This document shows, piece by piece, positions 15,057-32,116 of a stretch of 64,000 bases of DNA. The first letter of the stretch is position 1, and each line of letters starts with the position of its first letter. The DNA comes from Gammaproteobacteria bacterium (GTDB lineage Bacteria > Pseudomonadota > Gammaproteobacteria > Xanthomonadales > SZUA-36), in assembly GCA_030426265.1 (NCBI GenBank), contig JAUHYP010000013.1:3817-67816 (forward strand), read 5' to 3'. A program made the position numbers and the translations under genes. A model generated the notes under the pieces. That model was not told the DNA's origin, made no database searches, and saw only the letters and a program-made list of their open reading frames with translations.

Positions 15057-16457
15057 TCAGGGATCGATTGTCGGGGTGGTTTGCCTGGCGCGTTCCTCGC
15101 GCAACAGCGCCCAGACCAGGAAGCCCACCAGTCCCACCGCCGCGAGCAGACCGGTCCAGACCAGCACCGTGCGCCAGCCCCATCTCCGAACCTCGGTGAG
15201 CGCCCGCTCACCCGCGCCGATCCGTCGCGCGCCGATGGTCGCCAGGCCCGGTTCGCCCGCCTGTTCCAGCATGGAGAACAGCGCCCCGTCCCCCATCTGC
15301 CGATCCTGCGGGAATTGCTCCAACTGGTCCCGGGCGCGCCCGCTCGCCAGCGAAAAGGGCGCCTCGCCCTGCGCCAGGAACAACAGTCGGTCGGGCCGCC
15401 AGCCCAGCCGAAGCCGCAGGTCGCCGTCGACCTGCCCGGACCGTAGCTGGACGCGCCACTGCGTGCTGCGCGTGGGCTTCAACACCGCCGGGCTCGAGAC
15501 CAGCTCATTCCCGGAAGGCGCAATGCGATAGAACATGTCGTCGTGGCGCTGGCGCCACTCGTCCTCGGGACCGTCACGCACCTCGACCGATGCCCGGACC
15601 ACGCCGCGCCCGCCGGGAAACGCCAGGTCGACGCGGTCCACCGGTGGATAGCCATCCAGGGCGTAGATGAAGGAACGGCCGTCCTCGCTCCGCTCGACCG
15701 GCGGAATTTCCAGCCATTCCCGTTCCGCCGCGGGCCCGAGCTCCCGGCGGATGGCCGTCATCGATTCCGGTCGCCAGCCGGACGGCATGCCGCGCCAGGT
15801 CACGCGCAGGTAGTCGCCCGGCTGGCGGTCGACGTCGATACGCTTCTGCTCGATCCGGGCCTCCTCGTAGGCCAGGTCCGCCAGCATGCCCTGCGCCAGG
15901 GGCGCCCAGTTCGCCAGGTCGTAACCGTCCTCGATGATGACCGTCCCGATGAAGCCACCAGGCGCGCCGGAGCCGCTGAATTCCAGGGCGGATATCCGGT
16001 CGTCGTGTTCACGCAGGTCGACGATGAGGGCGCGCAATTGAAGCTGTGGATCGGCAGGCTCGGGCAGCTCGGACTGGAACTTGAGGCTGGTTCCGGGCTC
16101 GTCGATCTGCATCAGCAATTGCAGGCGGAGCGCGGCTTCGGAGATCTCGCCGTACAGCGGCAGCACCCCCAGGGGCGCCCGGGTCTCCAGCATCTCGACC
16201 TGCTCCTCGGGGCGCTCGAAGGTACGCGGCACCGCGCGCCCGGCGGCGTTGTAGACACCCAGGTCCCGCAGTTCGGGGTCGGTCACCGAGCGATAGACTT
16301 CGAACGGTACGTCCAGGGCCTGGAACTCGCCAGGCGCCACGATGTCGAGCGGGAAGTGCCAGGCGTATTCGTCACGATCCGGCACCTGGCCGGCTGCGGC
16401 AGCTGCGTAGCCCGCCGCCAGTGCCGCCAACGCCAGGCGTGTCACACCCAATCTCAT
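15057..16457 (-). CDS. exported protein, DUF3999-type partner of the upstream membrane protein (family assignment from memory)
   Basis: Start MRLGVTRLALAALAAGYAAAAAGQ at 16457 forms an ATGA overlap with the upstream stop (16454-16457). There is a C-terminal TM helix. The ORF-track start at 16628 is an extension. Confidence 0.7.
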   Translation of the reverse strand: MRLGVTRLALAALAAGYAAAAAGQVPDRDEYAWHFPLDIVAPGEFQALDVPFEVYRSVTDPELRDLGVYNAAGRAVPRTFERPEEQVEMLETRAPLGVLPLYGEISEAALRLQLLMQIDEPGTSLKFQSELPEPADPQLQLRALIVDLREHDDRISALEFSGSGAPGGFIGTVIIEDGYDLANWAPLAQGMLADLAYEEARIEQKRIDVDRQPGDYLRVTWRGMPSGWRPESMTAIRRELGPAAEREWLEIPPVERSEDGRSFIYALDGYPPVDRVDLAFPGGRGVVRASVEVRDGPEDEWRQRHDDMFYRIAPSGNELVSSPAVLKPTRSTQWRVQLRSGQVDGDLRLRLGWRPDRLLFLAQGEAPFSLASGRARDQLEQFPQDRQMGDGALFSMLEQAGEPGLATIGARRIGAGERALTEVRRWGWRTVLVWTGLLAAVGLVGFLVWALLREERARQTTPTIDP

Positions 16458-19237
16458 TCGTCCTCCTCCCTGGCGCGCGGCGGCGCCGGTGCGAAATAGC
16501 CCACCACCAGCAGCAGCACCCCGACGCCGATGAAGGAAACGATGCGTTCGATGGTGCCGGAGTTGCCCAGGTCGACCAGGAACAGCTTCAGCACCACCAG
16601 GGCCATGAACCCGGCGCCGATCAGCCACAACTGGCGGTGCGCGCGCCGGGCGCCCAGCACCATGGCCGTAAAGCCCAGCACACCCCAGTAGATGGACAGT
16701 GCGGTCTGGGCCACGACCGAGTCGTACAGGCGATCGAAGTCCCAGGGAACGCCGGCCACGTGATGCACCCCGCGTAGCAGGGCCGCGGTGGTCAGGATGA
16801 AGAAGGCGATGGCCAGGAAGCCCTTGTACACCGGCAGTCCGTCCTGGATTCGGCTGACGGCGACCAGCGAGATGTCACGCCCCAGCACCAGCAGCGACAT
16901 CACCGCCACGACGGCCGCGAACACCGTGGCCAGGTCCAGCGGATTGAGCACCGGGAGGTAGGGCAGGGGCCCCGGGTCACCGGGCAGCGCGATGCTCAAC
17001 ACGCACAGGTGGAGCACCTGTCCCGCCACCAGGAACAGGCTCAGCGCCCGGTAGGTAACCGGGTGCGCCGGAACCGGCCAGGCCGGGCGCTCACGGAATC
17101 GCCAGATGGCCAGCGCGATGATGCCGGGAATGGCGTTGGACGCGGCCTCGGCCCAGGCCCCGGGAACGATAGGGCGTACCTGGTAGCGGACCTCGACGGC
17201 CAGCATGAGGGTGAGCAACAGGGTGGTCCCCACGTGCCATCCGCCGGCCAGGCGGTGCACCCGCTTGTCCATCAGGCGGGTGAGCCATGCCTGGACCGCG
17301 AGCGCCAGCGGCCAGGACAGCCAGCCCGGACCGGAAAGGAAGTGTCGCTCGAAATCGACGGTCTGAAGCGCCATCAGGGCCAGTACCGGCAGCCACAAAA
17401 GGGACAGGTACCGCGCCATGCGCCAGTCCCGGTGTGCGCCAAGCCAGGCCGCCATCGCGGCGGTGGCGGCCAGGAACAGTACGGCGACAGGCAGTTCATG
17501 ATCGCGGGCCAGGCGATCGGAGATTTCCACCATGCCCGTCGCCACCCACCAGGTCACCCCCCAGGCAAACAGGCCCCAGGCCATGACGGCGTAGAAGCGT
17601 CCGACGGGAGGCAGCCGGAAGTCCTCCAGTCGGCGCGCCGCGAACAGTGCCGACAGGCTGATCAGGACGCCATTGAGCACGTTGCCGTTCAGTACGGGCC
17701 AGCCTTCGTCACTGCGCCATCCGTGCAGCAGGAAGGACACACCGCTGAACACGATCAGCGCGGCGCCGGCGAAATTGGCCAGGTGCTGACGCTGCCGCGT
17801 GGCCACCCACACCAGCGCCGCGCCTTCCAGCGCCCAGGCCGTCGCTGTCCAGCGGGCATCCAGCGCCAGCGGGATGGAGATGGTGGCAAAGGCCACGGCC
17901 AGGGCGATGAAGGAATCCCTGAGCACCCGCAGGGTCGCGCCGTGTTTTTGATGCAGCCAGGTGGCCAGCAGGGCATAGAACACCGCCAGGACCGCTGCGC
18001 TGATGGCCAGTCCGTACTCGAAGTCGCGCACCAGCGCGGCCTGCAGCGCGAAGGCGATCACGGGGGTGCCGAACACCAGAGTACCGTCGACCAGGCCGAT
18101 ACGGCTTGGCGGCTGGCGCAGGGCGAACATGATGGCGATGGCCTGGTAGAGCAGGAAATGGATGACCAGGAACGGCTCGGTGCTGGCGAACAGTTCCGGG
18201 CGGTAGTAGCGGTAGCCCCAGAAACTGCCGATCACGAAGGTGAACACGAAGCCGACGAGGTTGACCGAGCGCCAGGCCTGGAACCAGGCCACCGCGAAGA
18301 TCAGCGCATTGAGCACCAGGTAGTAGCTGAACAGCGCGACATGGCTGCCCTCGCCTGTGGAGGTGAGCACCGGCGCGAGAAAGCCGCCGATCGCGCCAAG
18401 CAACACCAGGCCCCGTGCCTTCTGCAACACCGCCAGCGCACCCGAGAAGGCGGCCAGGGCCACCAGCAATGCAAAGGCGAATCCGGCCGGGACCAGCTGC
18501 CAGATCCTGAAGGCCGCGAACAGCGTCAGGAACAGGATGCCGATGCCGCCGCCCTGCAGGCTGATGCCGTATACGCGCATCCGCGTTCGCAGTCGCCAGC
18601 CGATGACGACCAGTGCCACGCCCGCCGCGGCGACCGCCAGGAGGCGGAATTCGATGGGCAGCGTGAACAGCTCGTTGTCGATGGCGTACTTGAGAAAGAA
18701 CGCCACGCCGATGAACGAGAGGATGACACCGACCTTGACCGGCACGTTGCCCGTCGTGAACCAGGCCGTGAGTCGTTGTCCGAGATCGTTGACCGTGGTC
18801 GTGAAGCGTGAGGGGGCCTTCGGGGTGCCGATGGCAGCAGGTTCGCTCACCGACATCGCGGCTGCGGCGCCTGCGATGGGTGGGGGACTGGACGGGGAAG
18901 GGGGCGGGGCCGCCGTTGGACCGGTGGATTCCGGACCTGCACCCGGTGTTTCGGGGCGGACAGGCGGGGCAGGCGAGGCGACGGGCGCGGCAGGAGCCTG
19001 AACGCCCGGATCAACTGGCGCCGTTGACGAATCCGTCGCGGCCGGCACACTCGATACTCCACGCCGAGCCAGGTCATCGAGTGTCGCCTCCAGCGCCCGC
19101 GAACGTCGCTCGAGCAGGACGACCCGGGACACCAGGAAGCCGATCACCGCGCCGCCCAGCGGGCCCAGCAAATAGCCGCCACCGGCCGCAAACGCCAGGC
19201 CGATGAAAAAACCCACCAGGGTCAGGGCAATCGCCAT
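16454..19237 (-). CDS. large polytopic membrane protein, DUF2339-type (family assignment from memory)
   Basis: About 925 aa. An N-terminal TM is followed by a Pro/Ala-rich linker and more than 20 hydrophobic helices. The first ATG is at 19237; the track start at 19243 is TTG. Confidence 0.75.
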   Translation of the reverse strand: MAIALTLVGFFIGLAFAAGGGYLLGPLGGAVIGFLVSRVVLLERRSRALEATLDDLARRGVSSVPAATDSSTAPVDPGVQAPAAPVASPAPPVRPETPGAGPESTGPTAAPPPSPSSPPPIAGAAAAMSVSEPAAIGTPKAPSRFTTTVNDLGQRLTAWFTTGNVPVKVGVILSFIGVAFFLKYAIDNELFTLPIEFRLLAVAAAGVALVVIGWRLRTRMRVYGISLQGGGIGILFLTLFAAFRIWQLVPAGFAFALLVALAAFSGALAVLQKARGLVLLGAIGGFLAPVLTSTGEGSHVALFSYYLVLNALIFAVAWFQAWRSVNLVGFVFTFVIGSFWGYRYYRPELFASTEPFLVIHFLLYQAIAIMFALRQPPSRIGLVDGTLVFGTPVIAFALQAALVRDFEYGLAISAAVLAVFYALLATWLHQKHGATLRVLRDSFIALAVAFATISIPLALDARWTATAWALEGAALVWVATRQRQHLANFAGAALIVFSGVSFLLHGWRSDEGWPVLNGNVLNGVLISLSALFAARRLEDFRLPPVGRFYAVMAWGLFAWGVTWWVATGMVEISDRLARDHELPVAVLFLAATAAMAAWLGAHRDWRMARYLSLLWLPVLALMALQTVDFERHFLSGPGWLSWPLALAVQAWLTRLMDKRVHRLAGGWHVGTTLLLTLMLAVEVRYQVRPIVPGAWAEAASNAIPGIIALAIWRFRERPAWPVPAHPVTYRALSLFLVAGQVLHLCVLSIALPGDPGPLPYLPVLNPLDLATVFAAVVAVMSLLVLGRDISLVAVSRIQDGLPVYKGFLAIAFFILTTAALLRGVHHVAGVPWDFDRLYDSVVAQTALSIYWGVLGFTAMVLGARRAHRQLWLIGAGFMALVVLKLFLVDLGNSGTIERIVSFIGVGVLLLVVGYFAPAPPRAREEDE

Positions 19238-19256
19238 CGGCAAAGTCTAGCGCAAG
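19229..19256 (+). repeat. left copy of the direct repeat bracketing the TIR/caspase island
   Basis: The 15-nt core AAAGTCTAGCGCAAG (19242-19256) is identical to 29610-29624. The 13 nt to its left match 7 of 13 by hand alignment, and a shared ATCGAT lies a few nt to the right. Confidence 0.55.
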
Positions 19257-19314: not shown

Positions 19315-19521
19315 GGCATTGTCGCCGGGTGGGAACTCCTGGATGCACTGTCGCAATGGATCGACGCCTTCGCGGGCGGAGGTGGGATCGACATCGCCGT
19401 GCTGTTCGCCAGCGCCCTGGCCGTGACCATCTACTGCAAGCTGATGGCGAAAACCCTGGCGCCGAAGCACGTCCGGGTGAATGTCGTGACGCTAGCTGGT
19501 TTCAGAATGCCGCCGGCTTGA
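19315..19521 (+). pseudogene. possible remnant of a short-chain dehydrogenase gene
   Basis: This open frame has no start codon and reads GGGGIDIAVLFASALAVTIYCKLMAKTLAPKHVRVNVVTLAGF. It matches the SDR pattern (Y-x3-K, then A-K-x2-A-x3-[IV]-R-V-N-x4-G) seen in the intact SDRs of this window. Both ends are truncated and the segment overlaps the 3' end of the TIR gene. Confidence 0.3.
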
Positions 19522-21460
19522 GGTTTCGCGAATGCCAGACCATGCCGTTCTCGTCGGTGCCCTGGTAGTAGTCGCCGACCCGCCTGTGAAAGGGAATTCG
19601 GATGTTGAGCGGTTCACCTGATGTTACGACCAGTCCGCTCAATTGAACGCCGAGGTGAATCGGGTTTGTCTGGTGGTCTCCGGCATCGAGCAAGGGATAC
19701 CCGCTTCCGTGAATCTGTTGCGCTGATTTGCCCGGAAGGATCAACTGCCCGTCGAATTGCTGATCGGAGGCCAGTTGGAACTGTAGTTCGATCACTCCAT
19801 GGAGGCTCGCCGCCCGTGCTTCCCAGTGGCCCTCGTACCGGACCTCCTGAACTCCTTCGTCATTGACCTGGCGGGCCGGTACGAATCGGGGTAAGTGTGA
19901 AGTGTCCGCCTTGCTGCTCAGGTCTTCCCCGGTCGCAAGTCGCTGCTCGATACTCTCAAGGTCTTGCTGGGTTTTGCGCGAGGAGGCGGCCTCCCTCTCC
20001 AAAAGGTCGACGAGGTCCTGGACCAGGTAGGGAAATTCAGACCTGAACCGGCTTTCGTTCAATCCAACAGCGTGCAGTGTGGTCAGCCGCTTCAGGGAGC
20101 TGGGAAGTTCTTCAATCGCGGGCATATCGGCGCCATTCAGAAGTACCGGAAGGATCGCACGGAAACTCTCGAAGGCGGTTTCCACCTCCCTGCGGACCAC
20201 GTCCTGGACGGTCATTATCCCGCCATTGCGAGTCCAGTCCTTATCGATCAGGACCAGTACCACGTTTGCCCGGCGTATTTCGTCGCGAATCGCTTGGGTC
20301 CAGTCCGTTGCTGCTACGTTGTCCGCCACGTCCTGGAACACCTTCATGCGGGGAAAACGCAGCTCCAGTTCGCGTTTGATCTGTCCCGCCAGCGTCGAGG
20401 CGCCGGAGCGGCGGTAGGACAGGACAATGCGTGTCTCGCGCTGGCGGACATAGGCATCCTGTTGCAGAGGTTGCATCCATGGCCTCGCGGCGGGCTCGAA
20501 CTCGTCTGCCAGGTCGGGAGCGGTCGAACTATAGTCACCTGGCGCCAACCCCTGGCTGAGCATGAGAGCGGTGGCAATCCGCGCCAGCTGGCCGTACTCC
20601 TCGAAACCGGTCGCTTCGGGATGCGTGGCATTCCGCGACAGGGTGACGTAGGCCTCCAGGGCCGAGGGGAAGGCACAGAGTTTGCAGAGATCCCGCAACA
20701 GATTCGACCGCAGGCTGGGCCTGTGCGGGTCCAGGTGAATGCCGAACAGGTTTTCACGCAGGGAATCTGTATGTCGACCCATCTTGCTGTACACCACCGC
20801 CAGGGTGCCACGAAAGTAGGCGTCGTAGGGATTGAGCTGTTTGAGGCCTTCAAATCCCTCTCGCGCCGAGTCGATGTCGCCGCGCTTTAGCGCCTGAAAG
20901 TGTTCTTCCGCCCTGTCGTAGGCTTGTTCCATGGTCACGCGTTCCACCACGGACCGCGCCTCGCCGTCGACCAGGAGACTGGCCAGTTCCCGTTCCGCAT
21001 CGTCGAAGAGTCGACTGAGGCCCGATCCGGCCAGGTCGGCGTACAGGCGCAGCGCTCGTTCGGTATCGGCCCGTTGATCGGGTCTGGCGATTCGCATGTG
21101 CGTCACCAGGCCATTGCCAAGGACATCCGGAAGCTGGTCTGCACAGTCAGCGTAGGACCAGGCATCGATGGGATCCAGCTGTTCAAACCGGGCATTGGTG
21201 AATGCATTGAGCGCTCGCATCGACCGGACCAGTGCGATCTGTGTGAACTGGACTTCGAGCGCGGCCGGTCGATCACCGAAGCGCTGCAGGAAGGTTGCTA
21301 TCGCGTTGCTGGCGGCGGTGAGTGATTTCGCGTCCAGTGCGAGGGGACGGGTGCACCCCAGCAGCTCCTGTTCGTCGCCAGGAAGCAACGCCTGTCCACA
21401 GTGCCGACAGAAGGCGCTGTCGTCAGGATTGTCGCCCTGGCATTGCGTGCACTGCGTCAT
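19502..21460 (-). CDS. zinc-ribbon / TPR-like / TIR-domain protein with unknown C-terminal domain
   Basis: Start MTQCTQCQGDNPDDSAFCRHCGQ (CxxC...CxxC zinc ribbon). Helical TPR-like middle region. The TIR domain lies at about 19997-20434 (RIVLSYRRSGAS ... VVLVLIDKDW ... REVETAF). About 135 aa of unassigned beta-rich C-terminus follow. Confidence 0.8.
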   Translation of the reverse strand: MTQCTQCQGDNPDDSAFCRHCGQALLPGDEQELLGCTRPLALDAKSLTAASNAIATFLQRFGDRPAALEVQFTQIALVRSMRALNAFTNARFEQLDPIDAWSYADCADQLPDVLGNGLVTHMRIARPDQRADTERALRLYADLAGSGLSRLFDDAERELASLLVDGEARSVVERVTMEQAYDRAEEHFQALKRGDIDSAREGFEGLKQLNPYDAYFRGTLAVVYSKMGRHTDSLRENLFGIHLDPHRPSLRSNLLRDLCKLCAFPSALEAYVTLSRNATHPEATGFEEYGQLARIATALMLSQGLAPGDYSSTAPDLADEFEPAARPWMQPLQQDAYVRQRETRIVLSYRRSGASTLAGQIKRELELRFPRMKVFQDVADNVAATDWTQAIRDEIRRANVVLVLIDKDWTRNGGIMTVQDVVRREVETAFESFRAILPVLLNGADMPAIEELPSSLKRLTTLHAVGLNESRFRSEFPYLVQDLVDLLEREAASSRKTQQDLESIEQRLATGEDLSSKADTSHLPRFVPARQVNDEGVQEVRYEGHWEARAASLHGVIELQFQLASDQQFDGQLILPGKSAQQIHGSGYPLLDAGDHQTNPIHLGVQLSGLVVTSGEPLNIRIPFHRRVGDYYQGTDENGMVWHSRNLKPAAF

Positions 21461-21501
21461 GATCGTTCCGATCCAATCGTCTACCCGAACAGGAGGGACC
21501 C

Positions 21502-22482
21502 TCAGATCCGCCCCTTCTGAACCAGCCGCCGGTAGTGCTCGCCCAGCTCCGTCAGCCTGCACGCTGTGCGCTCCATCGCGGCATGCCACATGTTGGCCTT
21601 CGAGGCGCCCACGGGGACGACCAGGTTCAGGCGGTTCATTTTCTGCAACAACAGGAACCTGGCGACGTTTTCCGGGTCGGGAGGCGGCGCGTCCGGTTCG
21701 CGGCCGGCCATTTCCGGTTCGAAGCTCGGGTCCAGCGCGAACTCGCTGCCGGGTTCGGGGAAGAATTTCAGGATCTTGCGCAGCTCAGCGAGCTCGATCG
21801 GCGGCGGGACGTTTCTCAGCGACACGAACTTCTTGATATTGGTCCGGAACAGCGGGCGCTGCTCGAAGCCGCCCAGTGATTCGTCGATGTGCGCGTAGAC
21901 GCTGCCGGGCGATATGGCGCCCAGCAGATTCGCGGCGCTGCCTTTCAGGGCATCCACGAACAGGGTCGTGAACACTCCGCGCCCGTCCTTTTCACTCGCA
22001 TACTGCTCCGCGGTGGATGCGGTGAGCACTGTCAGGCCTTCGGACAGGACCACGAGGTCCTTGTGCAGGGGCGCGGCGCCCGCGATGCCGGAGTGGCAGC
22101 TGTCCAGGATGACGAGCTTGTTCCGGGCCGGTGAAAGGTTGGCGTAGGTCAGGACGTCGTTGAGCGAGAGCCCTTCGTCGCCCCGGCTCGAGTCCGAGGT
22201 CAGCAGGTAGCCGCCCGTCGCCTCGATGTGCCCATGGCCGGCGAAGTAGAACAGGGCCACGTCCGCGTCGATGGAGAACACTTCCTTGACGGCGTCGCGC
22301 AGCTGCCTCCGTCCGAGGCCGCTGGCAGCGTCCTTCGCCAGGAACGGCTTGCAATCGAAGTTGCGGGAACCATCACCGTTCCGACCCAGGACATCGAGCA
22401 CGGCACGGGCATCCTCGACGCACCCGAACAAGGGCCGCCCGTGTTGGTAGTAATTGATTCCGACAACCAGCGCGACGCGCAT
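21502..22482 (-). CDS. caspase-like (Peptidase_C14 / orthocaspase-type) protease with unknown C-terminal domain
   Basis: MRVALVVGINYY start. The catalytic His sits in FYFAGHGH (codon 22234-22236) and the Cys in ILDSCHSG (22096-22098). About 115 aa of unassigned C-terminus follow. An alternative GTG start lies at 22491. Confidence 0.85.
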   Translation of the reverse strand: MRVALVVGINYYQHGRPLFGCVEDARAVLDVLGRNGDGSRNFDCKPFLAKDAASGLGRRQLRDAVKEVFSIDADVALFYFAGHGHIEATGGYLLTSDSSRGDEGLSLNDVLTYANLSPARNKLVILDSCHSGIAGAAPLHKDLVVLSEGLTVLTASTAEQYASEKDGRGVFTTLFVDALKGSAANLLGAISPGSVYAHIDESLGGFEQRPLFRTNIKKFVSLRNVPPPIELAELRKILKFFPEPGSEFALDPSFEPEMAGREPDAPPPDPENVARFLLLQKMNRLNLVVPVGASKANMWHAAMERTACRLTELGEHYRRLVQKGRI

Positions 22483-22653
22483 TTCGTCCACTCACGATCG
22501 AATTGTCTATAAATGTAGCAAGTGCGGAGCATCTTGCTCGTGCGCGCAGGTCTTTGTTTTTCAAAGCGACAGGGCGCAGACTATGGGCAGGCCGGTGGGT
22601 GGTTGGTGCTATTCGCCGGACACGCCGCACGCTGTACGGAACGAGGCGCCCTT
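22483..22653. promoter_or_regulatory. divergent control region between the two TIR/caspase operons
   Basis: About 170 bp, locally AT-richer. It holds a TATAAA element at 22508-22513 and an inverted repeat AGCAAG-N10-CTTGCT at 22517-22538. No promoter could be called confidently. Confidence 0.3.
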
Positions 22654-25554
22654 GTGAATGACATCCACATACCCGGCTACGAAATCCTCAAGCAGTTGGG
22701 GATCGGGGGCATGGCCAGGGTGTACAAGGCGCGCCAGTTGTCGCTGGAGCGGGAAGTCGCCATCAAGGTCTTGCGGGCCGATCTCGGGGACGACGTCGAG
22801 TCCTTCAAGAGGCGGTTTTTCAACGAGGGCAGGATCCTCGCCAGCATCACGCACCCCAACATTGTCGCCGTCTACGACCTCGGCGAGGCGGGGGACGCGC
22901 TCTACATCGCCATGGAGCTCGTGCCCGGGGACACCCTCGAGGAGATGGTCCGCAGGGACGGCGTGACGCTGGAACAGGCCATCGGAATCTGCCGGAAGAT
23001 TGCAGGCGCCCTGGATCGGGCGCACGCCAAGGGCGTGATTCACCGCGACATCAAGCCCTCGAACATCCTCATGGAAGACCTGGACACGCCGAAGCTGGTC
23101 GATTTCGGCATCGCCCGGGGTCGCCAGGCCGATGTCGGCATGACCCAGGAAGGCGTCATGCTCGGCACGCCGTTGTACATGAGTCCGGAGCAGGTCCAGG
23201 GCGTCGCCATCGACGAGCGTACGGACATCTATGCGTTGGGCGTCACGCTGTACTGGCTCCTGGCGGGCCGCCATCCTTTCGAGGGGGACGCCGCGCTCGG
23301 CATCGCACTCAAGCACCTGCATGATCCGATCCCCGAACTTCCCGAAGCGGTGGCCGGACTGCAGGCCATCGTCGAGCGCGCGATGGCCAAGGACCCGGCA
23401 GATCGTTTCCAGAGCGCCAGGGAGTTTGCCGATGCCCTCGACGCGGTGGAACTCGATGGTCCGCCGCTCCATCTCGGTGTTCCGACCGCCGATCCGGCGG
23501 GACCCACGCTCGGTCGCACCCAGCCGGCTTACCCGACCCTCGAGGTGCCCCGCAGGGGCGCCTCGCCCGCGACGAAACGCGGTGGTTGGCTCAGCGCCAT
23601 CCTCGGCTGGTTCGGGAAGTCAGACGACGGGGGTGAAGCCGGAACGACCGGGCGCGCATCCGCTCAAGCTCCCGCGGCGCCGGACCCGCAGGCGCAGACC
23701 CACCCACAGATGCCCTCCGTCTCCGGTTCCGAAAAGGGTGCAACGCCGGCCCCCACGCCGGCCCCCTGGCAGGAGTCCACGGGCGCCGCCACCATCCTGA
23801 GTCCCATCACGCCGCCCGCCGAACCCGAATCCCCACCCACCCTCCCCGGGGAACTGGCGCCGCCGTCGGGTGATGACACGCAGTTCCTGGTTCCCGGCGA
23901 GGCCGGCACGGAGCAGGGGCTGGTCGTCAGCCTCGCCGTGACGAGCTCGCCTGACCCATCGTTCGTGGGCACCCGGGTCCAGTGCCAGTCGTTCCCGTTC
24001 CGGATTGGCAGGGGCGGAGAGGCCGATCTGAAAATCGAGCGCGACAGCGCCATCTCCCGGAACCATGCCGAGATCTTCAAGATCGGCTCGGGGTATTACC
24101 TCAAGGACACCAGCGCCAACGGCATCGTGGTCAACGGACAGCTGGGCAAGGACCAGTCCGTGCCCCTGCCGTTCAACAGCTCGATCCAGCTCTCCGATTC
24201 GACGACGCTGACGTTCCAGCCCCACCTCGAACTGCTGCCGGACCTGACGGGCCAGCGCATCGGCGACCGTTTCGACGTCGAGAAAGCCCTCCACCACAGC
24301 ATCAAGGCCTCCACCTACCGCTGCCGGGACCTCGACATGCCGCGCACCGTGGTGGTCAAGCTGTTCTCCCCGCACCTCATGTCCCTGGAGCAGTTCCGGG
24401 ACGAATTCGAACGGCAGGCGAGGCTGACCATGAAGTTCACTTCGCCGCACATCGTCAAGGTGCTCGAGTTCAAGGAGTTCCCGATCCCGCAGATCGCCGC
24501 CGGCAAGCCGGTTTCCTACGTGTGCACCGAGTACATGGAAGGCGGCAGCCTGGCCCGGCGCATGGATGACGAGGACTTTCCGGAAGCGGAACAGGCGCTG
24601 AACTGGGTGGTCGTGCTGGCGCGCGCGTTGGACCATGCTCACCGGCGCGGTGTCGTGCATGGCGACCTCAAGCCCAGCTGCATCGTGTTCGATGCCGACG
24701 GCGCGCCCTACGTCACGGATTTCGCCATGGCGGTGACGGAAGGGGAGGGCAAGGACAGCGCCCGGACCGGCACGCCGGCCTTCTGGGCGCCGGAACAGTG
24801 GGACCGCCAGGCGGCGACCGAGCGCACGGACCAGTACAGCCTGGCCGTGCTGGCCTACTTCATGCTCTCCGGCGCCCGGCCCTTCGAAGGCCAGTCGCAG
24901 CCCCGGATTCGCGAGCGAAACTTCCGCCGCGGCCCCGAGCCGGTGCACGAGGTGGCCGAGCGACGGCGCGGACTGGCGCTCAACAGCAACCTGTCCCAGG
25001 TTCTGGCGCGGGGCATGAGCGTCGACCCGGAAGCGCGCTACGAGTCCGTGACCGCCTTCGCCACCGCCCTGTCCCAGGCAGCGCACACGGCCGAGCAGCG
25101 CCGCAGCACCCCGCGCGTGTTCATCAGTTACCGGCGCAAGGCCAACGCGGGTTGGGCGAACCTCTTTGATTACAACCTCAGGAACCAGTTCGGGTTCGAG
25201 GTGTTCATCGATGCGCGCGCGGTGGACGGTTCGCCGCAGATCCCGACCCGGGTGCGGAACGAAATCGATCGTTGCGATGTCTTCGTCTGCCTGCTCCACC
25301 CCGAGACACTGGAGTCGGACTGGGTGCGGGCGGAGATCAAGCTGGCGCACGAGGCCCGCAAACCCATGGTTCCGGTGTTCTCGGAACACTTCCAGCCCGG
25401 CGCCTACAAGGAGGCGGCGGCCGAAATCCAGGCCCTGCTGGACCACGAGGCCGTCATCTTGCTCGACCAGAAGAACGTCTACCTGGATGCGGCCCTCAAG
25501 ATGCTGGCCGACCAGGTGCAAAAGCTCGTGGGGCCGAGCGGTCGCGTGCACTGA
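22654..25554 (+). CDS. Ser/Thr kinase - FHA - kinase-like (possibly pseudokinase) - TIR fusion protein
   Basis: - Kinase 1 (about 22678-23445): GIGGMARVY loop, VAIK Lys 22765-22767, HRD Asp 23047-23049, DFG, SPE.
- Pro-rich linker.
- FHA (about 23950-24225): FRIGRG, SRNHA, ANG.
- Second kinase-like domain (about 24250-25075): no Gly-rich loop, HGD at 24658-24666, DFA instead of DFG.
- C-terminal TIR (about 25111-25530): RVFISYRR ... SDWVRAEI.
- The start is inferred as GTG 22654 (GAGG upstream); the track start at 22522 is an upstream GTG. Confidence 0.85.
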   Translation: MNDIHIPGYEILKQLGIGGMARVYKARQLSLEREVAIKVLRADLGDDVESFKRRFFNEGRILASITHPNIVAVYDLGEAGDALYIAMELVPGDTLEEMVRRDGVTLEQAIGICRKIAGALDRAHAKGVIHRDIKPSNILMEDLDTPKLVDFGIARGRQADVGMTQEGVMLGTPLYMSPEQVQGVAIDERTDIYALGVTLYWLLAGRHPFEGDAALGIALKHLHDPIPELPEAVAGLQAIVERAMAKDPADRFQSAREFADALDAVELDGPPLHLGVPTADPAGPTLGRTQPAYPTLEVPRRGASPATKRGGWLSAILGWFGKSDDGGEAGTTGRASAQAPAAPDPQAQTHPQMPSVSGSEKGATPAPTPAPWQESTGAATILSPITPPAEPESPPTLPGELAPPSGDDTQFLVPGEAGTEQGLVVSLAVTSSPDPSFVGTRVQCQSFPFRIGRGGEADLKIERDSAISRNHAEIFKIGSGYYLKDTSANGIVVNGQLGKDQSVPLPFNSSIQLSDSTTLTFQPHLELLPDLTGQRIGDRFDVEKALHHSIKASTYRCRDLDMPRTVVVKLFSPHLMSLEQFRDEFERQARLTMKFTSPHIVKVLEFKEFPIPQIAAGKPVSYVCTEYMEGGSLARRMDDEDFPEAEQALNWVVVLARALDHAHRRGVVHGDLKPSCIVFDADGAPYVTDFAMAVTEGEGKDSARTGTPAFWAPEQWDRQAATERTDQYSLAVLAYFMLSGARPFEGQSQPRIRERNFRRGPEPVHEVAERRRGLALNSNLSQVLARGMSVDPEARYESVTAFATALSQAAHTAEQRRSTPRVFISYRRKANAGWANLFDYNLRNQFGFEVFIDARAVDGSPQIPTRVRNEIDRCDVFVCLLHPETLESDWVRAEIKLAHEARKPMVPVFSEHFQPGAYKEAAAEIQALLDHEAVILLDQKNVYLDAALKMLADQVQKLVGPSGRVH

Positions 25555-25688: not shown

Positions 25689-27533
25689 GTGGCCAGGAAA
25701 GCGGCCATCGTGATCGGGGTGAACACCACGGGTGGCCTCACCCCGTTGCGCTCGGCGGCGCGCTGCGCCGACGAGGTGGCGGAGTGGCTCGAGGCGGAGG
25801 GCTATGACGTCGCCTGCCTGACGGACGCGGACGAACCGGTCACCACCGGCCGCGTCACCGACGCCATGGACCGGTTCGTGACCGTGCCGCCGCGCTATGC
25901 GCAACTGGTGGTGTACTTCACCGGACACGGGTACTGGCACGCCCGGGCCGACATCTGGCTGCTCAGCAAGGCGCCGGTCCGGACGGAAGAAGCCATCAAC
26001 CTCGAGGGCGCCATCGACCTGGCCCGCTATTCGGGCATCCGCAACGTCATCTTCATCTCGGACGCCTGCCGGTCCCTGCCCGACGTACGGTCCGGCGCGC
26101 TGGTCCAGGGCATCGACGCTTTTCCCAACTTCGCCGACATCACGACCCAGTCGAAGATCGACGTGTTCCGCGCCACCAGTGACGCCCAGGCGGCCTACGA
26201 GGCGGAGGTGGACGGCCAGCCCACCAGCCTGCTGACGCACGCGCTGCGTGCGGCCTTCCGCGAACCCGAGCCCGACATGCTGCGGGACGTGGGCGGTCAG
26301 CAGGTCGTCCCGAACCGGCGGCTCGAGAAGTACCTGCAGCGCAAGATCGACACCACCCTGGGGGCCATCGACCTCAACCTGCGCCAGCGCATCGAGGTCA
26401 ACGTCCCCTCGGATGACGACATCTACATCGCGACCGCCGCCGTCGCCCCGAGCCGACCGCCACCCGGCGAAGTCGTGCATCGTGGTGCGGGCGACGACTT
26501 TGGGATGGACGACCTTCCCATGACTTCGGGTGCGGAGCCGGCATCCCCGGAACCGGAGCCCCCGAAATCGGTGCCTCCCGCAGAGGCCGTTCCCCCCGCG
26601 CCTTCGGTGCTCGGGGACATCCGCGGCAACCTGGATCGCGTGTTCTCCGAGCCCATGGGCATGTCCGACTCCGCCACGATCAATTTCACGATGGACATGA
26701 CGGAGACCGTCGACCGCCTGTCCGGACTCATGCCCCGACCGGACGTGGCGGATCACTTCGAATCCCATTGCGGGTTCACGATTTCCGGCGCCCGGATCGA
26801 GGAGGCCATCTGCGGCGGCGCCGCGGACGGGGTCTTCATCGAACGGTTGTACGAGGGCGATGGCGCGGACCAGCCGGCCGTGGTCCGCCTGTGGGACGCC
26901 GCCCCCGGCGCGACCGTGTTGCTGCGCACGGACGACGGTCGCGTCCTGGTGCTGGCCGGCTTGCCCGATTTCATCGGGCACGCGACGGTCGGCGAAGCCG
27001 GCCTGAAGAACGTGAGCTACATCCCGTCGTCCAATGCCGGCGAGCTCTACGATTTCTACCGGGAAAAGCAGGAGCGCATCGATCGCTTCCGCGCCCTGGT
27101 CGCCCTGGCGGCCAACGAAAACGAGTTCCGGCTGGAATCCGATGACGCGGCCATCCGGCTGGCGGACGAGATCCGGATGGTCAAGGCCCTGGATCCCACG
27201 CTGGGACTGTACGCCGCCCATGCCTACGCCCAGGCCAGCAAGGTGGAAAAGGTGGCCAGTGTCGCCGACGCCATGCGCCACGACCTGCACATCGACCTGT
27301 TCGACCTGGTCGTATTGACCTCGCGCCGTGGCGATCCCTGGCCGGACCGCCCGGTCATGCCGTTCTGCCCGCTGCTCACGCAAACCTGGAACCTGCTCCG
27401 GCCCCGCGGAATCGAGCTGCATCCCGCGCTGGCGGAAGCGTCCGCCTACCTGCGCAACGCCCTGTGGACGACCTTCGAGGCCGAGGCCTGGGATCCGCTC
27501 CGCGCGGCGATGGAATTGGGAGAGTTGAGATGA
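25689..27533 (+). CDS. caspase-like protease domain with a ~400-aa unknown C-terminal region
   Basis: GTG start with AGGAGG SD. KAAIVIGVN is followed by His in VVYFTGHG (25926-25928) and Cys in FISDACRS (26067-26069). A Pro-rich linker leads into an unassigned C-terminal region. Confidence 0.8.
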   Translation: MARKAAIVIGVNTTGGLTPLRSAARCADEVAEWLEAEGYDVACLTDADEPVTTGRVTDAMDRFVTVPPRYAQLVVYFTGHGYWHARADIWLLSKAPVRTEEAINLEGAIDLARYSGIRNVIFISDACRSLPDVRSGALVQGIDAFPNFADITTQSKIDVFRATSDAQAAYEAEVDGQPTSLLTHALRAAFREPEPDMLRDVGGQQVVPNRRLEKYLQRKIDTTLGAIDLNLRQRIEVNVPSDDDIYIATAAVAPSRPPPGEVVHRGAGDDFGMDDLPMTSGAEPASPEPEPPKSVPPAEAVPPAPSVLGDIRGNLDRVFSEPMGMSDSATINFTMDMTETVDRLSGLMPRPDVADHFESHCGFTISGARIEEAICGGAADGVFIERLYEGDGADQPAVVRLWDAAPGATVLLRTDDGRVLVLAGLPDFIGHATVGEAGLKNVSYIPSSNAGELYDFYREKQERIDRFRALVALAANENEFRLESDDAAIRLADEIRMVKALDPTLGLYAAHAYAQASKVEKVASVADAMRHDLHIDLFDLVVLTSRRGDPWPDRPVMPFCPLLTQTWNLLRPRGIELHPALAEASAYLRNALWTTFEAEAWDPLRAAMELGELR

Positions 27534-28405
27534 GAATCCTGTTCATTCACGGACGCGCCCAGGGTGGCAAGGACCCGGTCGCCCTGGCGAAACTCTGGAA
27601 CGACACCCTGAAGCTGGGCTTGGAATCGGCCACGGAGGCCCTGCCGGACGGGGTCGGGGTGGACTTTCCCTATTACGGCGATGCGCTGGACGACTTCACC
27701 GCGCGCGCCGATCTGCCGTCCCCGGACGAGGTGGTCGCCAAGGGGCCGGGCCAGGACGCCGGCTTCGAATCGTTCATGCAGAGCGCCCTGGACGAGATGT
27801 ACCAGAAATCCAGCCTCACCGAGGACCAGGTGGAAGCCGAGATGACCACCGGCCAGGTGCAGGAGAAGGGCCCGCAGAACTGGGGCTGGGTGCAGGCCAT
27901 CGCCCGGGCCCTGGACAAGCATGTCACGGGAGCGGCGGACTGGACCATCGACCGATTCCTGAAGGACGTGTACCTGTACGTCAACATCCCGACCGTCACC
28001 CGCGGCATCAACGCCATCGTCGAGGACATGATCACGGATGAGCCGACCGTGGTGGTCGGCCATTCCCTGGGCACCGTGGTGGGCTACAAGGTCATCCAGG
28101 AGAACCAGGGCAGGCTCAACGCCTGCAAGTACATCACCCTGGGCTCACCCCTGGGCATTCGCGCCATCAGTTCGAAACTGGGCCTCCCGGAAAACCTCGC
28201 CAAACAGGGCTGGTACAACGCCTACGACGACGGCGACGTGGTGGCCCTGAACCCGCTGGATGACCGGTATTTCCCGACCGACCCGGAAATCGTGAACAAC
28301 AACGGCGTCCACAATTTCACGGACAACCAGCACGGCATCGCCGGCTACCTGAACGACGCCAGGGTGGCGGCGGAGATCGTCAAGGCGGTGCGCGGTCACC
28401 CTTAG
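27530..28405 (+). CDS. alpha/beta-fold hydrolase (lipase/esterase-like)
   Basis: ATGA overlap with the upstream stop (27530-27533). MRILFIHGRAQGG start. The nucleophile elbow is VVVGHSLGT (Ser codon 28064-28066). There is no signal peptide. Confidence 0.75.
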   Translation: MRILFIHGRAQGGKDPVALAKLWNDTLKLGLESATEALPDGVGVDFPYYGDALDDFTARADLPSPDEVVAKGPGQDAGFESFMQSALDEMYQKSSLTEDQVEAEMTTGQVQEKGPQNWGWVQAIARALDKHVTGAADWTIDRFLKDVYLYVNIPTVTRGINAIVEDMITDEPTVVVGHSLGTVVGYKVIQENQGRLNACKYITLGSPLGIRAISSKLGLPENLAKQGWYNAYDDGDVVALNPLDDRYFPTDPEIVNNNGVHNFTDNQHGIAGYLNDARVAAEIVKAVRGHP

Positions 28406-28432: not shown

Positions 28433-29551
28433 TCAGTCCTGGTCGGATTCAGTGATGCGAATGTCGCGGAGCAGTCGCTCCAGGGCACGCTCATAGCTCG
28501 TGGCGTCCTGCCAGTTCGAGAAATCACCGATCTGCCGCGCGTTGCGAATGTCCGAACTCCAACCTGATTCCACATCGAGAATCGAGTCGTCGAGCCGGAT
28601 CGGCAGGAGGACGCCGATCTTCAGTTTGGTTTCCTTGCGAAAAGCGGTTTCGACTTCCTTTTCGATCCACGGGCTCTCAAAGGAATTCGCGGACAGCACG
28701 AGCAGCAGGTGATCGTGTTGCCCGATGGCTTCGTCGATGCGGTTGCGAATACGGTCGCCGATTCTCATGTCTTCCGGAGCGAACCAGCAGCGAACCCCTG
28801 CGGCCTGCAGGTCCCCGTACAGCTTCCGGACGAAGGCTTCGTCACGTTGGTTGTAACTGATGAAACAGGAGCGGTATTTCTGAAGCTGGGCGACCTCTTC
28901 GGTATACAGCGCGATCACCCTGTCCGGCATGCCGCAACCTCGCAGAAATTCCGGAACGGCATGCCCCATCCAGCGAACGGTGTCGTGATCCAGGGAACTG
29001 GGGCCGAGATGAACCGTGTCGTCGAGTCCGGTCGCTTCGCGAAAGTCGGTCCGACCGAAGACGGTATCCAGGAAACTCGCCCGGCCAAGCGCCGCGCGAT
29101 AGAAATTGGTTTTGCGAAGGTCTGCGCCCGCCAGGTTGCTCCCGGTCATGGTTGCGCGAACCAGGCGGGCCCTGCGCAGGCAGGCCTGGCTGAGATCTGA
29201 ATCGATGAGATAGGCGCGCTCCAGGTTCGCGCCGCTGAGGTCTGCCTGGTACAGGGTCGCGTGATCGAGCGTCGCCTTGCTCAGGTCAGCCCCTCCGAGA
29301 TTGGCCTTGACCAGCCGTGCGCCCGTCAGGTTCGCGCCACAGAGGTTCGCGTAGGTCAGGTTGGCATGGCCCAGATCCGAGCCGGAAAGATCGGTGCCCA
29401 GGAGCATCGCGTCCTGCAGGTCGATGTGACCCAGGTCCTTTCCAGCCAGGTTGGCGCCGGACAGGTTGGCGTCTTCCCCTCGGCGCTGTTTCCACTCGTT
29501 CCATGCGAGAACGCCGGCTTCGAGCTTGCGCAACTGCTTGGGGTTCGCCAT
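28433..29551 (-). CDS. pentapeptide-repeat - TIR-domain protein
   Basis: ATG at 29551 (MANPKQLRKLE). About 28 pentapeptide units (ANLSGANLAGKDLGHIDLQDAMLLGTDLSG...) span about 29053-29473. The C-terminal TIR lies at about 28570-28870 (SCFISYNQRD ... LLLVLSANSFESPWIEKEVETAF). Confidence 0.85.
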   Translation of the reverse strand: MANPKQLRKLEAGVLAWNEWKQRRGEDANLSGANLAGKDLGHIDLQDAMLLGTDLSGSDLGHANLTYANLCGANLTGARLVKANLGGADLSKATLDHATLYQADLSGANLERAYLIDSDLSQACLRRARLVRATMTGSNLAGADLRKTNFYRAALGRASFLDTVFGRTDFREATGLDDTVHLGPSSLDHDTVRWMGHAVPEFLRGCGMPDRVIALYTEEVAQLQKYRSCFISYNQRDEAFVRKLYGDLQAAGVRCWFAPEDMRIGDRIRNRIDEAIGQHDHLLLVLSANSFESPWIEKEVETAFRKETKLKIGVLLPIRLDDSILDVESGWSSDIRNARQIGDFSNWQDATSYERALERLLRDIRITESDQD

Positions 29552-29596
29552 GCGGTCGTTTCCTTTGACCTCGATCCCGGCCGAGGGATCCAGTCC

Positions 29597-29624
29597 GATC
29601 ACCACCAAAAAAGTCTAGCGCAAG
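29597..29624 (+). repeat. right copy of the direct repeat bracketing the TIR/caspase island
   Basis: The core AAAGTCTAGCGCAAG at 29610-29624 is identical to 19242-19256. A perfect 7-bp inverted repeat CGAACGG-N5-CCGTTCG follows at 29636-29654. Confidence 0.55.
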
Positions 29625-30246: not shown

Positions 30247-30445
30247 TGCGCAGGCCTCACGCCGATCAGGTCCGTTGATCGTTATCGGCCCGAAACGCCT
30301 GAATGGGCCGGCTCAGCCCGCCTTGCAGCGATAGACCCCATAGGTTCGGCTGCCGCCCTCGACCCCGGTGCAACGGTCCGGCGGGCGGCATAGTATCCAT
30401 CCACGGGGCCATTTCGACAAAGCGAATCCATGAACCAGCGAGAGG

Positions 30446-32092: not shown

Positions 32093-32116
32093 CCACTGAA
32101 CCACGGGGAGTCCGCC

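What the first reader, a model, noticed from the sequence alone, without database searches (positions are those of the whole stretch)
19502..22482. Two-gene caspase-like protease + TIR operon, reminiscent of TIR-to-caspase signalling
**Seen.** A 326-aa caspase-like protease has an intact AGHG/DSCHSG dyad and a ~115-aa unassigned C-terminal domain. Forty-two nt downstream lies a 652-aa protein with an N-terminal CxxC...CxxC zinc ribbon, TPR-like helices, a TIR domain and a ~135-aa unassigned beta-rich tail.

**Established (from memory, not verifiable here).** A Thoeris variant has been reported in which a TIR protein makes a nucleotide signal that activates a caspase-like protease.

**Inference.** The protease C-terminal domain could be the signal receptor. 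The zinc-ribbon, TPR and C-terminal modules of the TIR protein could be the infection sensor. The TIR protein here is much larger and more modular than a minimal ThsB-type TIR.
Basis: partly seen in the sequence, partly recalled or inferred. Interest (0 to 1): 0.8.

Follow-up and report, generated by a model that had tools for sequence, protein, structure and literature searches.

The report
Thoeris caspase with unusual TIR partners
The protease is a clear relative of the effector of a known phage-defence system, type IV Thoeris, but it lacks that system's usual small TIR partner.

Summary
On the minus strand, a 326-aa caspase-like gene (21502-22482) is followed after 41 nt by a 652-aa protein (19502-21460) with a zinc ribbon, a helical repeat region, a TIR domain and a beta-rich tail.

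The protease belongs to the ThsE family, the type IV Thoeris effector. It is 60-68% identical to more than 6000 proteins of about 324 aa. In 80 species-representative genomes, roughly 75 of these follow a short ThsB of one of the two validated kinds. The window has no short ThsB.

The 652-aa TIR protein belongs to a small family. All three independent relatives I could examine stand alone without a caspase. Its TIR is SARM1-like, and its GC3 (0.71) differs from ThsE's (0.86).

An independent metagenome locus (L176) conserves a different set of genes. It has a kinase-FHA-kinase-TIR protein divergent from ThsE, plus a second caspase and a hydrolase, and no ThsB or 652-aa TIR. The window holds the same four genes with the kinase-TIR/ThsE pair inverted.

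My reading is a type IV Thoeris variant inside a roughly 10-kb multi-TIR island. The kinase-TIR is the conserved partner and the 652-aa TIR is a later, co-transcribed addition whose coupling to ThsE is unproven.

The parts
21502..22482 (-). ThsE-family caspase-like protease, 326 aa. Catalytic His83 is at 22234-22236 and Cys129 at 22096-22098. The conserved C-terminal domain spans about aa 228-326.
   Evidence: Pfam Peptidase_C14 matches at E=4e-16. The protein is 60-68% identical over its full length to more than 6000 proteins of about 324 aa, and it keeps every invariant column of alignment A1. Homologue P0074 directly follows a 123-aa ThsB that is 69% identical to the validated PsTIR. The caspase domain is structurally closest to MALT1 and caspases.
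19502..21460 (-). 652-aa sensor-type TIR protein. Domains: zinc ribbon (aa 4-24), helical/TPR-like region (about 30-330), SARM1-like TIR (about 344-467, catalytic Glu425 at 20186-20188), long helix (469-509) and an uncharacterised beta domain (about 525-652).
   Evidence: Domain hits are. The AlphaFold2 model has pLDDT 86.8. Foldseek aligns the TIR to SARM1 TIR with target-normalised TM-scores up to 0.86. The family has about 30 representatives at E<=1e-30 with Glu425 invariant. The beta domain has no Pfam or PDB sequence match.
21461..21501 (-). 41-nt spacer between the ThsE stop codon and the start of the 652-aa TIR gene.
   Evidence: Read directly from the sequence. No terminator-like or promoter-like site was found there, which is compatible with co-transcription.
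22483..22653 (.). 171-nt divergent intergenic region between the ThsE start and the kinase-TIR start.
   Evidence: Read from the sequence. L176 has the same divergent arrangement with a 149-nt spacer.
22654..25554 (+). Kinase-FHA-kinase-TIR protein, 966 aa. The first kinase has HRD/DFG; the second has HGD/DFA. The TIR Glu894 is at 25333-25335. This is the conserved neighbour of ThsE.
   Evidence: Pfam hits: Pkinase (two domains), FHA, and TIR_2 at E=6e-14. The gene is called as 966 aa. A 66%-identical orthologue lies divergent from a ThsE in L176.
25689..27533 (+). Second caspase-like protein ('casp2'), 614 aa, with an N-terminal C14 domain and about 400 aa of unknown function.
   Evidence: Pfam Peptidase_C14 matches at E=3e-9. 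The family has 129 clusters of about 590 aa. It is nearly always followed by the hydrolase.
27530..28405 (+). Alpha/beta-hydrolase-like protein, 291 aa, with a GHSLG motif. Its start overlaps the casp2 stop codon by 4 nt.
   Evidence: The Abhydrolase_6 hit is weak, and the L065 orthologue gives a PGAP1-like hit. Orthologues at 58-72% identity follow casp2 in L173-L178.
28433..29608 (-). Pentapeptide-repeat-TIR protein, 391 aa, with TIR Glu318 at 28655-28657.
   Evidence: Pfam hits: Pentapeptide at E=9e-34 and TIR_2 at E=2e-25. Its TIR domain resembles accessory TIR_2 proteins that flank ThsE elsewhere (L086 at 9e-23, L008 and L012 at about 1e-13, L052 at 7e-9).
19242..19256 (+). Left copy of an exact 15-nt direct repeat (AAAGTCTAGCGCAAG) that brackets the island.
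   Evidence: There are only two copies in 64 kb and none in 100 shuffles. The similarity extends to 34 nt at 76% identity.
29610..29624 (+). Right copy of the same 15-nt direct repeat.

Best explanation
The 326-aa protein is a ThsE-type effector. By homology it should be a dormant, arginine-directed caspase-like protease. Its conserved C-terminal domain would bind a TIR-made cyclic ADP-ribose isomer, which is N7-cADPR in the validated systems. It would then degrade cell proteins and abort the infection.

In this lineage the usual short ThsB has been replaced by large TIR proteins with built-in sensor modules. The partner that evolution has kept next to ThsE is the divergently transcribed kinase-FHA-kinase-TIR protein (22654-25554), together with a second caspase and a hydrolase.

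The 652-aa zinc-ribbon/TPR/TIR gene is a later addition, placed 41 nt downstream of ThsE and probably co-transcribed with it. Its relatives work alone elsewhere, so it most likely acts as a self-contained sensor with a SARM1-like NAD+-consuming TIR. Whether its product also fires ThsE is open; I put that at about one in three.

Shown: the family memberships, the gene order, the conserved residues and the conserved synteny. Inferred: the ligand, which TIR supplies the signal, and the protease specificity.
For: ThsE identity:
- The protein is 60-68% identical over its full length to a family of more than 6000 clusters. Mean pairwise identity within the family is 73% across phyla.
- All invariant columns are retained, including 32 in the C-terminal domain.
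- Family members follow short TIRs that are 69% and 52% identical to the two experimentally validated type IV TIRs. Residue numbers E79 and C129 match the published mutants.

No short ThsB: none is detectable in the 64-kb window.

Kinase-TIR as the conserved partner:
- L176 carries kinase-TIR (66% identity), ThsE (59%), casp2 (58%) and hydrolase (72%).
- The kinase-TIR and ThsE are divergent there too, the kinase-TIR is the only gene with a TIR domain hit in the gene calls for the 7 kb on each side, and there is no ThsB.
- The window's gene order equals the L176 order with the kinase-TIR/ThsE pair inverted as a block.

The 652-aa TIR as an add-on:
- Its relatives stand alone in L088, L093/L094 and L095.
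- It has no homologue in L176 or in the 80 ThsE loci.
- Its GC3 is 0.714, against 0.856-0.884 for ThsE, kinase-TIR, casp2 and hydrolase.
- Its TIR is closest to SARM1 TIR and shows no significant similarity to any ThsE-linked TIR.

Multiple TIR genes around one Thoeris effector are a published pattern, and I saw it in many ThsE loci.
Against: - The kinase-TIR/ThsE linkage rests on only two lineages, the window and L176.
- In a neighbour-joining tree the two ThsE proteins do not group together. The window's nearest relative, L089, has a normal ThsB.
- The kinase-TIR is divergently transcribed rather than in the same operon, whereas the 652-aa TIR is on the same strand 41 nt away with no terminator-like site.
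- One other locus (L052, Azonexus) has ThsE followed directly by a long TIR_2-Sel1 protein and no ThsB. So a long downstream TIR can be the only TIR beside a ThsE.
- No tool here can predict which cyclic ADPR isomer a TIR makes.
Confidence: 0.55

Rival explanations
1. ThsE and the 652-aa TIR form a dedicated two-gene type IV Thoeris variant. The zinc-ribbon, TPR and beta modules sense infection, the TIR makes the signal, and the ThsE C-terminal domain receives it.
For: - Same strand, 41-nt gap and no terminator-like site.
- The catalytic Glu425 is invariant in the family.
- ThsE is intact and needs a TIR signal.
- The pair meets the published operational detection rule: a caspase profile plus a TIR_2 or ThsB hit within one gene.
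- L052 shows ThsE followed by a long TIR_2-Sel1 protein with no ThsB.
- Extra downstream TIR genes are common in ThsE loci.
Against: - None of the three independent loci carrying full-length relatives of this TIR protein has a caspase gene in the sequence available.
- It is absent from L176, which conserves the rest of the cluster.
- Its GC3 differs from ThsE's by 0.14.
- Its TIR domain is unrelated to any TIR found beside ThsE.
- The FISYRR-type motif of its relatives did not occur in the stored part of the published Thoeris TIR catalogue.
Confidence: 0.25
2. Mere juxtaposition in a defence island. ThsE is an orphan that lost its ThsB and is no longer triggered. The 652-aa TIR, the kinase-TIR, the pentapeptide-TIR and the casp2-hydrolase pair are each independent systems.
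For: - No ThsB is present.
- Relatives of the 652-aa TIR stand alone.
- The casp2-hydrolase pair stands alone in L173, L174, L177 and L178.
- The window's ThsE departs at 7 of 133 highly conserved columns, against a mean of 1.2.
- GC3 is heterogeneous across the island.
Against: - The ORF is intact with the dyad and all invariant columns retained.
- The 7 departures are conservative. Several, such as W206F and H297N, are shared with the closest homologue P0002, which has a ThsB.
- The four-gene set is conserved with L176 at 58-72% identity despite a rearrangement.
- ThsE recurs with casp2-hydrolase in five loci across phyla.
Confidence: 0.12
3. A shared-effector network. All three sensor TIRs (zinc-ribbon/TPR, kinase/FHA and pentapeptide) make the same signal and converge on ThsE. 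ThsE in turn processes or cooperates with casp2 and the hydrolase in a protease cascade.
For: - All three TIRs keep the catalytic Glu.
- Thoeris islands with many ThsB proteins and several effectors are published.
- The pentapeptide-TIR's TIR domain is the one most like accessory TIRs of other ThsE loci.
- ThsE and casp2-hydrolase co-localise in the window, L175, L176, L065 and L038.
- A precedent exists for a caspase-like protease activated by another protease in type III-B CRISPR.
Against: There is no direct evidence for convergence or for a cascade. The three TIR domains are mutually distant. The casp2-hydrolase pair functions without ThsE or any TIR in four loci.
Confidence: 0.08

Closest known systems
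Type IV Thoeris (ThsB + ThsE; Pseudomonas sp. 1-7 and E. coli 328 systems, Rousset et al. 2024/2025)
   Same: - The effector family is the same: about 324 aa, a caspase domain with Cys129, and a conserved C-terminal domain of unknown fold.
- A TIR gene lies next door.
- The setting is a defence island.
- The pair meets the published detection rule.
   Different: - There is no short ThsB of either validated kind.
- The adjacent TIR proteins are 652 and 966 aa, carry sensor modules and have TIR_2/SARM1-like TIR domains.
- One lies downstream and the other is divergent, rather than immediately upstream.
- The window's ThsE is among the more divergent members (63.6% mean identity against a family mean of 73%).
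Thoeris islands with multiple ThsB proteins and effectors (Yirmiya et al. 2025, bioRxiv 10.64898/2025.12.03.692087)
   Same: Several TIR proteins are clustered with one or more effectors, and extra genes are attached to a core Thoeris operon.
   Different: The TIRs here are long multidomain proteins rather than ThsB-like ones. A kinase/FHA-TIR and a casp2-hydrolase pair do not appear in the text or in the stored supplementary tables ('kinase' and 'FHA' each occur 0 times).
SARM1 / TIR-1 (animal NAD+ hydrolase)
   Same: The TIR domain of the 652-aa protein is structurally closest to SARM1 TIR (target-normalised TM-scores up to 0.86, 20-22% identity). The overall layout is also alike, with a helical repeat region ahead of a TIR, and the catalytic Glu is aligned.
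   Different: There are no SAM domains. The helical region is TPR-like, not ARM. The protein has an added zinc ribbon and a C-terminal beta domain. The resemblance is of fold class, not orthology.
Stand-alone bacterial TIR defence proteins (for example SpbK)
   Same: A single gene combines a recognition part with a catalytic TIR, and relatives of the 652-aa protein occur without any partner gene.
   Different: There is no sequence relationship, and the trigger and product are unknown.
PD-T4-6-type defence Ser/Thr kinases (PADLOC)
   Same: The first kinase domain of the 966-aa protein scores E=6e-143 against PD-T4-6 models.
   Different: The match covers the kinase domain only. This protein adds an FHA domain, a second atypical kinase domain and a TIR.

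Membership tests
Type IV Thoeris | Effector homologous over its full length to ThsE, with a Cys-His dyad and the conserved C-terminal domain | tested here: met
   The protein is 60-68% identical over 100% of its length to the family. His83, Cys129 and all invariant columns are present. Family members follow ThsBs that are 69% and 52% identical to the two validated TIRs.
Type IV Thoeris | A TIR-domain gene (Pfam TIR_2 or ThsB_TIR) within one gene of the caspase, which is the published MacSyFinder rule | tested here: met
   TIR_2 proteins lie directly downstream (E=3.4e-9) and directly upstream in divergent orientation (E=6e-14). The rule is quoted.
Type IV Thoeris | A short ThsB (about 120-140 aa) of the PsTIR-like or EcTIR-like kind immediately upstream on the same strand | tested here: not met
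   No hit to either short-TIR profile anywhere in the window. Such a ThsB is present in roughly 75 of 80 species-representative loci.
Type IV Thoeris | The TIR partner family co-occurs with ThsE across genomes | tested here: inconclusive
   For the 652-aa TIR family, none of three independent loci has a caspase. For the kinase-TIR, one independent locus out of one examined (L176) has a ThsE.
Type IV Thoeris | Catalytic glutamate in the TIR domain | tested here: met
   Glu425 is invariant in alignment A2. Glu894 is present in the kinase-TIR and Glu318 in the pentapeptide-TIR.
Type IV Thoeris | The TIR makes N7-cADPR on infection, and this molecule activates the protease, which then cuts after arginine | not testable with these tools
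   This is a biochemical property. It is known only for the Pseudomonas sp. 1-7 system.
Peptidase C14 (caspase / metacaspase / paracaspase) | Caspase fold with a His-Cys dyad | tested here: met
   Pfam matches at E=4e-16. Foldseek finds MALT1, caspase-1/-4/-11 and metacaspases at E of 4e-7 to 1e-4. The model is only moderate (pLDDT 65.8).
Stand-alone sensor-TIR NADase (SARM1-like TIR) | SARM1-like TIR fold with the catalytic Glu, and relatives encoded without a partner effector | tested here: met
   Foldseek aligns the TIR to SARM1 TIR with target-normalised TM-scores up to 0.86. The stand-alone contexts are L088, L093/L094 and L095.
Stand-alone sensor-TIR NADase (SARM1-like TIR) | NAD+ depletion on activation | not testable with these tools
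   This is an enzymatic property.

The most novel reading that the evidence does not exclude
In this clade of type IV Thoeris the small ThsB has been replaced by a kinase/FHA-gated TIR protein, so phosphorylation signalling controls production of the nucleotide alarm. ThsE also works with a second caspase and a hydrolase as a multi-enzyme execution module. The 652-aa SARM1-like TIR is a second input that also makes the ThsE ligand, which would show that N7-cADPR synthesis is not confined to ThsB-like TIRs.
Probability: 0.2. Interest if true: 0.75.

Novelty: new variant of a known kind. Interest (0 to 1): 0.5.

Why it matters
Type IV Thoeris is the clearest bacterial example of TIR-to-caspase signalling, but how its tiny ThsB senses phage is unknown. 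A variant whose TIR partners carry recognisable sensor modules would make the sensing step experimentally approachable. Those modules are kinase and FHA domains, TPR-like repeats with a zinc ribbon, and pentapeptide repeats.

The variant would also test whether TIR domains far from ThsB, including SARM1-like ones, can make the ThsE ligand. The recurrent caspase-hydrolase pair next to ThsE is an uncharacterised module that could be a new defence system or a second step in a protease cascade.

If instead the genes are independent, the locus is an ordinary defence island holding one known effector family.

Tried and rejected
- **PADLOC (2023 models):** it gave only a generic 'caspase' hit for ThsE and nothing for the 652-aa TIR. 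It predates type IV Thoeris, so this is uninformative.
- **NCBIfam:** no ThsE model; the only hit was caspase_w_EACC1, below its cut-off.
- **PDB sequence search with ThsE:** only metacaspases at E>=0.03, so no ThsE structure is available for a structural comparison. Foldseek confirmed only the generic caspase fold.
- **Word-indexed protein search with the 652-aa TIR:** 3 hits, which wrongly suggested an orphan. The exhaustive HMMER search found the family.
- **Locus search with the 23-sequence alignment A2:** A 9-sequence subset worked but returned only 3 full-length loci among 80.
- **C-terminal beta domain:** a profile search of the PDB and Pfam found nothing.
- **ThsE decay:** I considered that ThsE might be decaying after losing ThsB. 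I rejected this because its departures from conserved columns are conservative and several are shared with its closest homologue, which has a ThsB.
- **Co-acquisition:** I considered that ThsE and the 652-aa TIR arrived as a unit. The 0.14 difference in GC3 argues against it.
- **Source organism:** I could not name it.
- **Literature:** a search for kinase-FHA-TIR with a caspase found no description.


Full report
**1. The observation**

The minus strand carries a 326-aa ORF (21502-22482) and, 41 nt downstream, a 652-aa ORF (19502-21460). Gene calls on identical metagenome contigs give the same lengths.

The first protein:
- It matches Pfam Peptidase_C14 at E=4e-16 over aa 1-214.
- His83 lies in FAGHGH and Cys129 in DSCHSG.

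The second protein:
- It has a CxxC...CxxC zinc ribbon with weak Pfam hits.
- Helical repeats match consensus TPR structures.
- A TIR_2 domain matches at E=3.4e-9 over aa 345-448. Glu425 is at 20186-20188.
- An AlphaFold2 model built on 23 family members has mean pLDDT 86.8. It shows helices at 30-330, a TIR at 344-467, a long helix at 469-509 and an all-beta domain at 544-646.

The description is confirmed. The only correction is 41 nt rather than 42.

**2. What the protease is**

More than 6000 protein clusters match it at 64-68% identity over the full length. Almost all are 324 aa, and they come from Chloroflexota, Bacteroidota, Planctomycetota, Nitrospirota, Pseudomonadota, Patescibacteria and archaea. 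The window protein keeps every invariant column of a 25-sequence alignment, including 32 in the C-terminal domain.

The link to the published system is direct:
- Homologue P0074 (65% identity) lies 18 nt after a 123-aa TIR with Glu79.
- That TIR is 69% identical to the TIR of the validated Pseudomonas sp. 1-7 type IV Thoeris system. I took the sequence from Table S1 of Yirmiya et al..
- A second kind of short TIR upstream of other homologues is 52% identical to the validated E. coli 328 TIR.
- The published active-site mutants are TIR E79Q and caspase C129A, the same residue numbers.

The protease is therefore a member of the ThsE family, the type IV Thoeris effector. In that system a TIR makes N7-cADPR, which switches on an arginine-directed promiscuous protease. 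The C-terminal domain is the proposed receptor. No ThsE structure is in the PDB. The caspase domain of my moderate model (pLDDT 65.8) is closest to MALT1 and caspases.

**3. How this locus differs from the norm**

I surveyed 80 species-representative genomes that carry a ThsE.
- Roughly 75 have a short ThsB of one of the two validated kinds on the same strand, ending within a few tens of nt of the ThsE start or slightly overlapping it.
- Several have a second tandem ThsB, or an extra TIR of about 170-190 aa just downstream.
- None has a homologue of the 652-aa protein.
- The window has no short ThsB at all.

The window's ThsE is a divergent member. Its mean identity to the others is 63.6%, against 73% among them. 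It departs at 7 of 133 highly conserved columns, but the changes are conservative and several are shared with its closest homologue, which does have a ThsB. So it does not look like a decaying gene.

**4. What the 652-aa TIR protein is**

The word-indexed search found only three relatives. An exhaustive HMMER search of 1.84 billion representatives found about 30 at E<=1e-30, of which about 25 are full length. They share the same architecture, with an invariant SYR motif, Glu425 and several residues in the beta domain. Shorter proteins with only the TIR and beta domain also exist.

I could read the surroundings of three independent full-length relatives. None has a caspase gene in the sequence available.
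- L088 has only about 240 nt of flank on each side of the gene.
- L093 and L094 carry the same gene. It lies between a group II intron reverse transcriptase and housekeeping genes such as a CTP synthase and a nicotinamidase-like gene.
- L095 lies beside transposase remnants.

Other properties also point away from ThsE:
- Its TIR is closest to the SARM1 TIR (sequence E=4e-4; Foldseek target-normalised TM-scores up to 0.86).
- Its TIR has no significant similarity to any TIR found beside a ThsE.
- The beta domain has no Pfam or PDB relative.
- Its GC3 is 0.714. ThsE (0.856), the kinase-TIR (0.870), casp2 (0.883) and the hydrolase (0.884) match the flanking genes sampled in the window (0.80-0.86).

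These points indicate a family that normally works alone and arrived here more recently.

**5. The surroundings change the picture**

Upstream of ThsE, across 171 nt and on the other strand, lies a 966-aa kinase-FHA-kinase-TIR protein. It is followed by a 614-aa second caspase (casp2) and a 291-aa alpha/beta-hydrolase-like protein whose start overlaps the casp2 stop by 4 nt. A pentapeptide-repeat-TIR protein is on the minus strand. The island thus holds three TIR proteins, two caspases and a hydrolase in about 10 kb. All three TIRs keep the catalytic Glu.

The casp2-hydrolase pair is a conserved two-gene module.
- It stands alone in L173, L174 (Dokdonella koreensis), L177 and L178.
- It lies next to ThsE in L175, L176, L065 and L038.
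- The hydrolase alone lies next to ThsE in L052 and L089.

The key locus is L176, from an unrelated metagenome. It has a kinase-FHA-kinase-TIR protein 66% identical to the window's, divergent from a ThsE (59%), then casp2 (58%) and the hydrolase (72%). It has no ThsB and no homologue of the 652-aa TIR. The kinase-TIR is the only gene with a TIR domain hit in the gene calls for the 7 kb on each side. The window's order equals the L176 order with the kinase-TIR/ThsE pair inverted as one block. This is the only TIR-ThsE linkage at this locus that is conserved across lineages.

**6. Most likely working**

ThsE is the executioner, triggered by a TIR-made nucleotide. This follows from close homology to validated systems. 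The conserved supplier of that signal in this clade is the kinase/FHA-TIR protein, which I infer from synteny in two lineages. The 652-aa TIR is co-transcribed with ThsE: the gap is 41 nt and has no terminator-like site. However, it belongs to a stand-alone family. It is most likely a self-contained sensor with an NAD+-consuming TIR, with roughly a one-in-three chance that its product also fires ThsE.

Points against my reading:
- The kinase-TIR linkage rests on only two lineages.
- The two ThsE proteins do not group together in a neighbour-joining tree.
- L052 has hydrolase, ThsE and a TIR_2-Sel1 protein with no ThsB. So a long downstream TIR can be the only TIR beside a ThsE.

**7. Comparison with what is known, and novelty**

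It fails the canonical feature of a short upstream ThsB.

Multi-TIR Thoeris islands and operons that fuse Thoeris with other systems are already described. I found no description of a kinase-FHA-TIR, a zinc-ribbon/TPR/TIR protein or a casp2-hydrolase pair associated with ThsE.

I file the locus as a new variant of a known kind.

Noticed in passing
window 25689-28405 (+); also L173, L174, L175, L176, L177, L178, L065, L038: A second caspase of about 590-614 aa is followed, with a 4-nt start/stop overlap, by an alpha/beta-hydrolase-like protein of about 290 aa (GHSLG motif). This is a conserved two-gene module of unknown function. It stands alone in four loci and lies next to ThsE in five. L173 and L176 add a third conserved gene of about 400 aa (70% identical to each other) that the window lacks.
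   Followed up: partly
window 19242-19256 and 29610-29624: An exact 15-nt direct repeat (AAAGTCTAGCGCAAG) occurs only twice in 64 kb and in none of 100 shuffles. The similarity extends to 34 nt at 76% identity. The copies lie at the start regions of the DUF2339 gene and the pentapeptide-TIR gene, so they bracket the whole TIR/caspase island. This may mark the island's insertion.
   Followed up: partly
window 28433-29608 (-): This pentapeptide-repeat-TIR protein has the TIR domain most similar, among the three TIRs in the window, to the accessory TIR_2 proteins that flank ThsB-ThsE in other genomes (L086, L008, L012, L010, L052).
   Followed up: partly
L052 718-3785 (Azonexus MAG): A three-gene run of hydrolase, ThsE and a TIR_2-Sel1-repeat protein (cut by the contig end), with no short ThsB. 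This is a second example of ThsE with only a long repeat-bearing TIR downstream.
   Followed up: partly
L009, L040, L043, L050, L059, L067, L073, L077; L016, L025, L031, L038, L045, L061, L080, L086: Many canonical type IV Thoeris loci carry a second tandem ThsB upstream, or an extra TIR of about 170-190 aa immediately downstream of ThsE.
   Followed up: partly
window 29725-30246 (+): A 173-aa ORF matches the AAA ATPase core of the anti-phage ATPase IteA (E=7.6e-14) but covers only part of the profile. It may be a gene fragment at the edge of the island. The neighbouring ORFs at 30266-31213 and 31585-32469 have low GC3 (0.63 and 0.43) and no family hit.
   Followed up: no
window 7846-10284 (-): Another Ser/Thr kinase, fused to TPR repeats (812 aa), lies 9 kb from the island.
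   Followed up: no
window 15057-19243 (-): A DUF3999 gene and a DUF2339 membrane-protein gene directly flank the island.
   Followed up: no
L177 7001-13335: In a Thiodiazotropha MAG, casp2 lies beside McrBC genes, an integrase gene and a CHAT protease gene. The hydrolase downstream of casp2 matches only in three separate tblastn pieces, so it may be disrupted.
   Followed up: no
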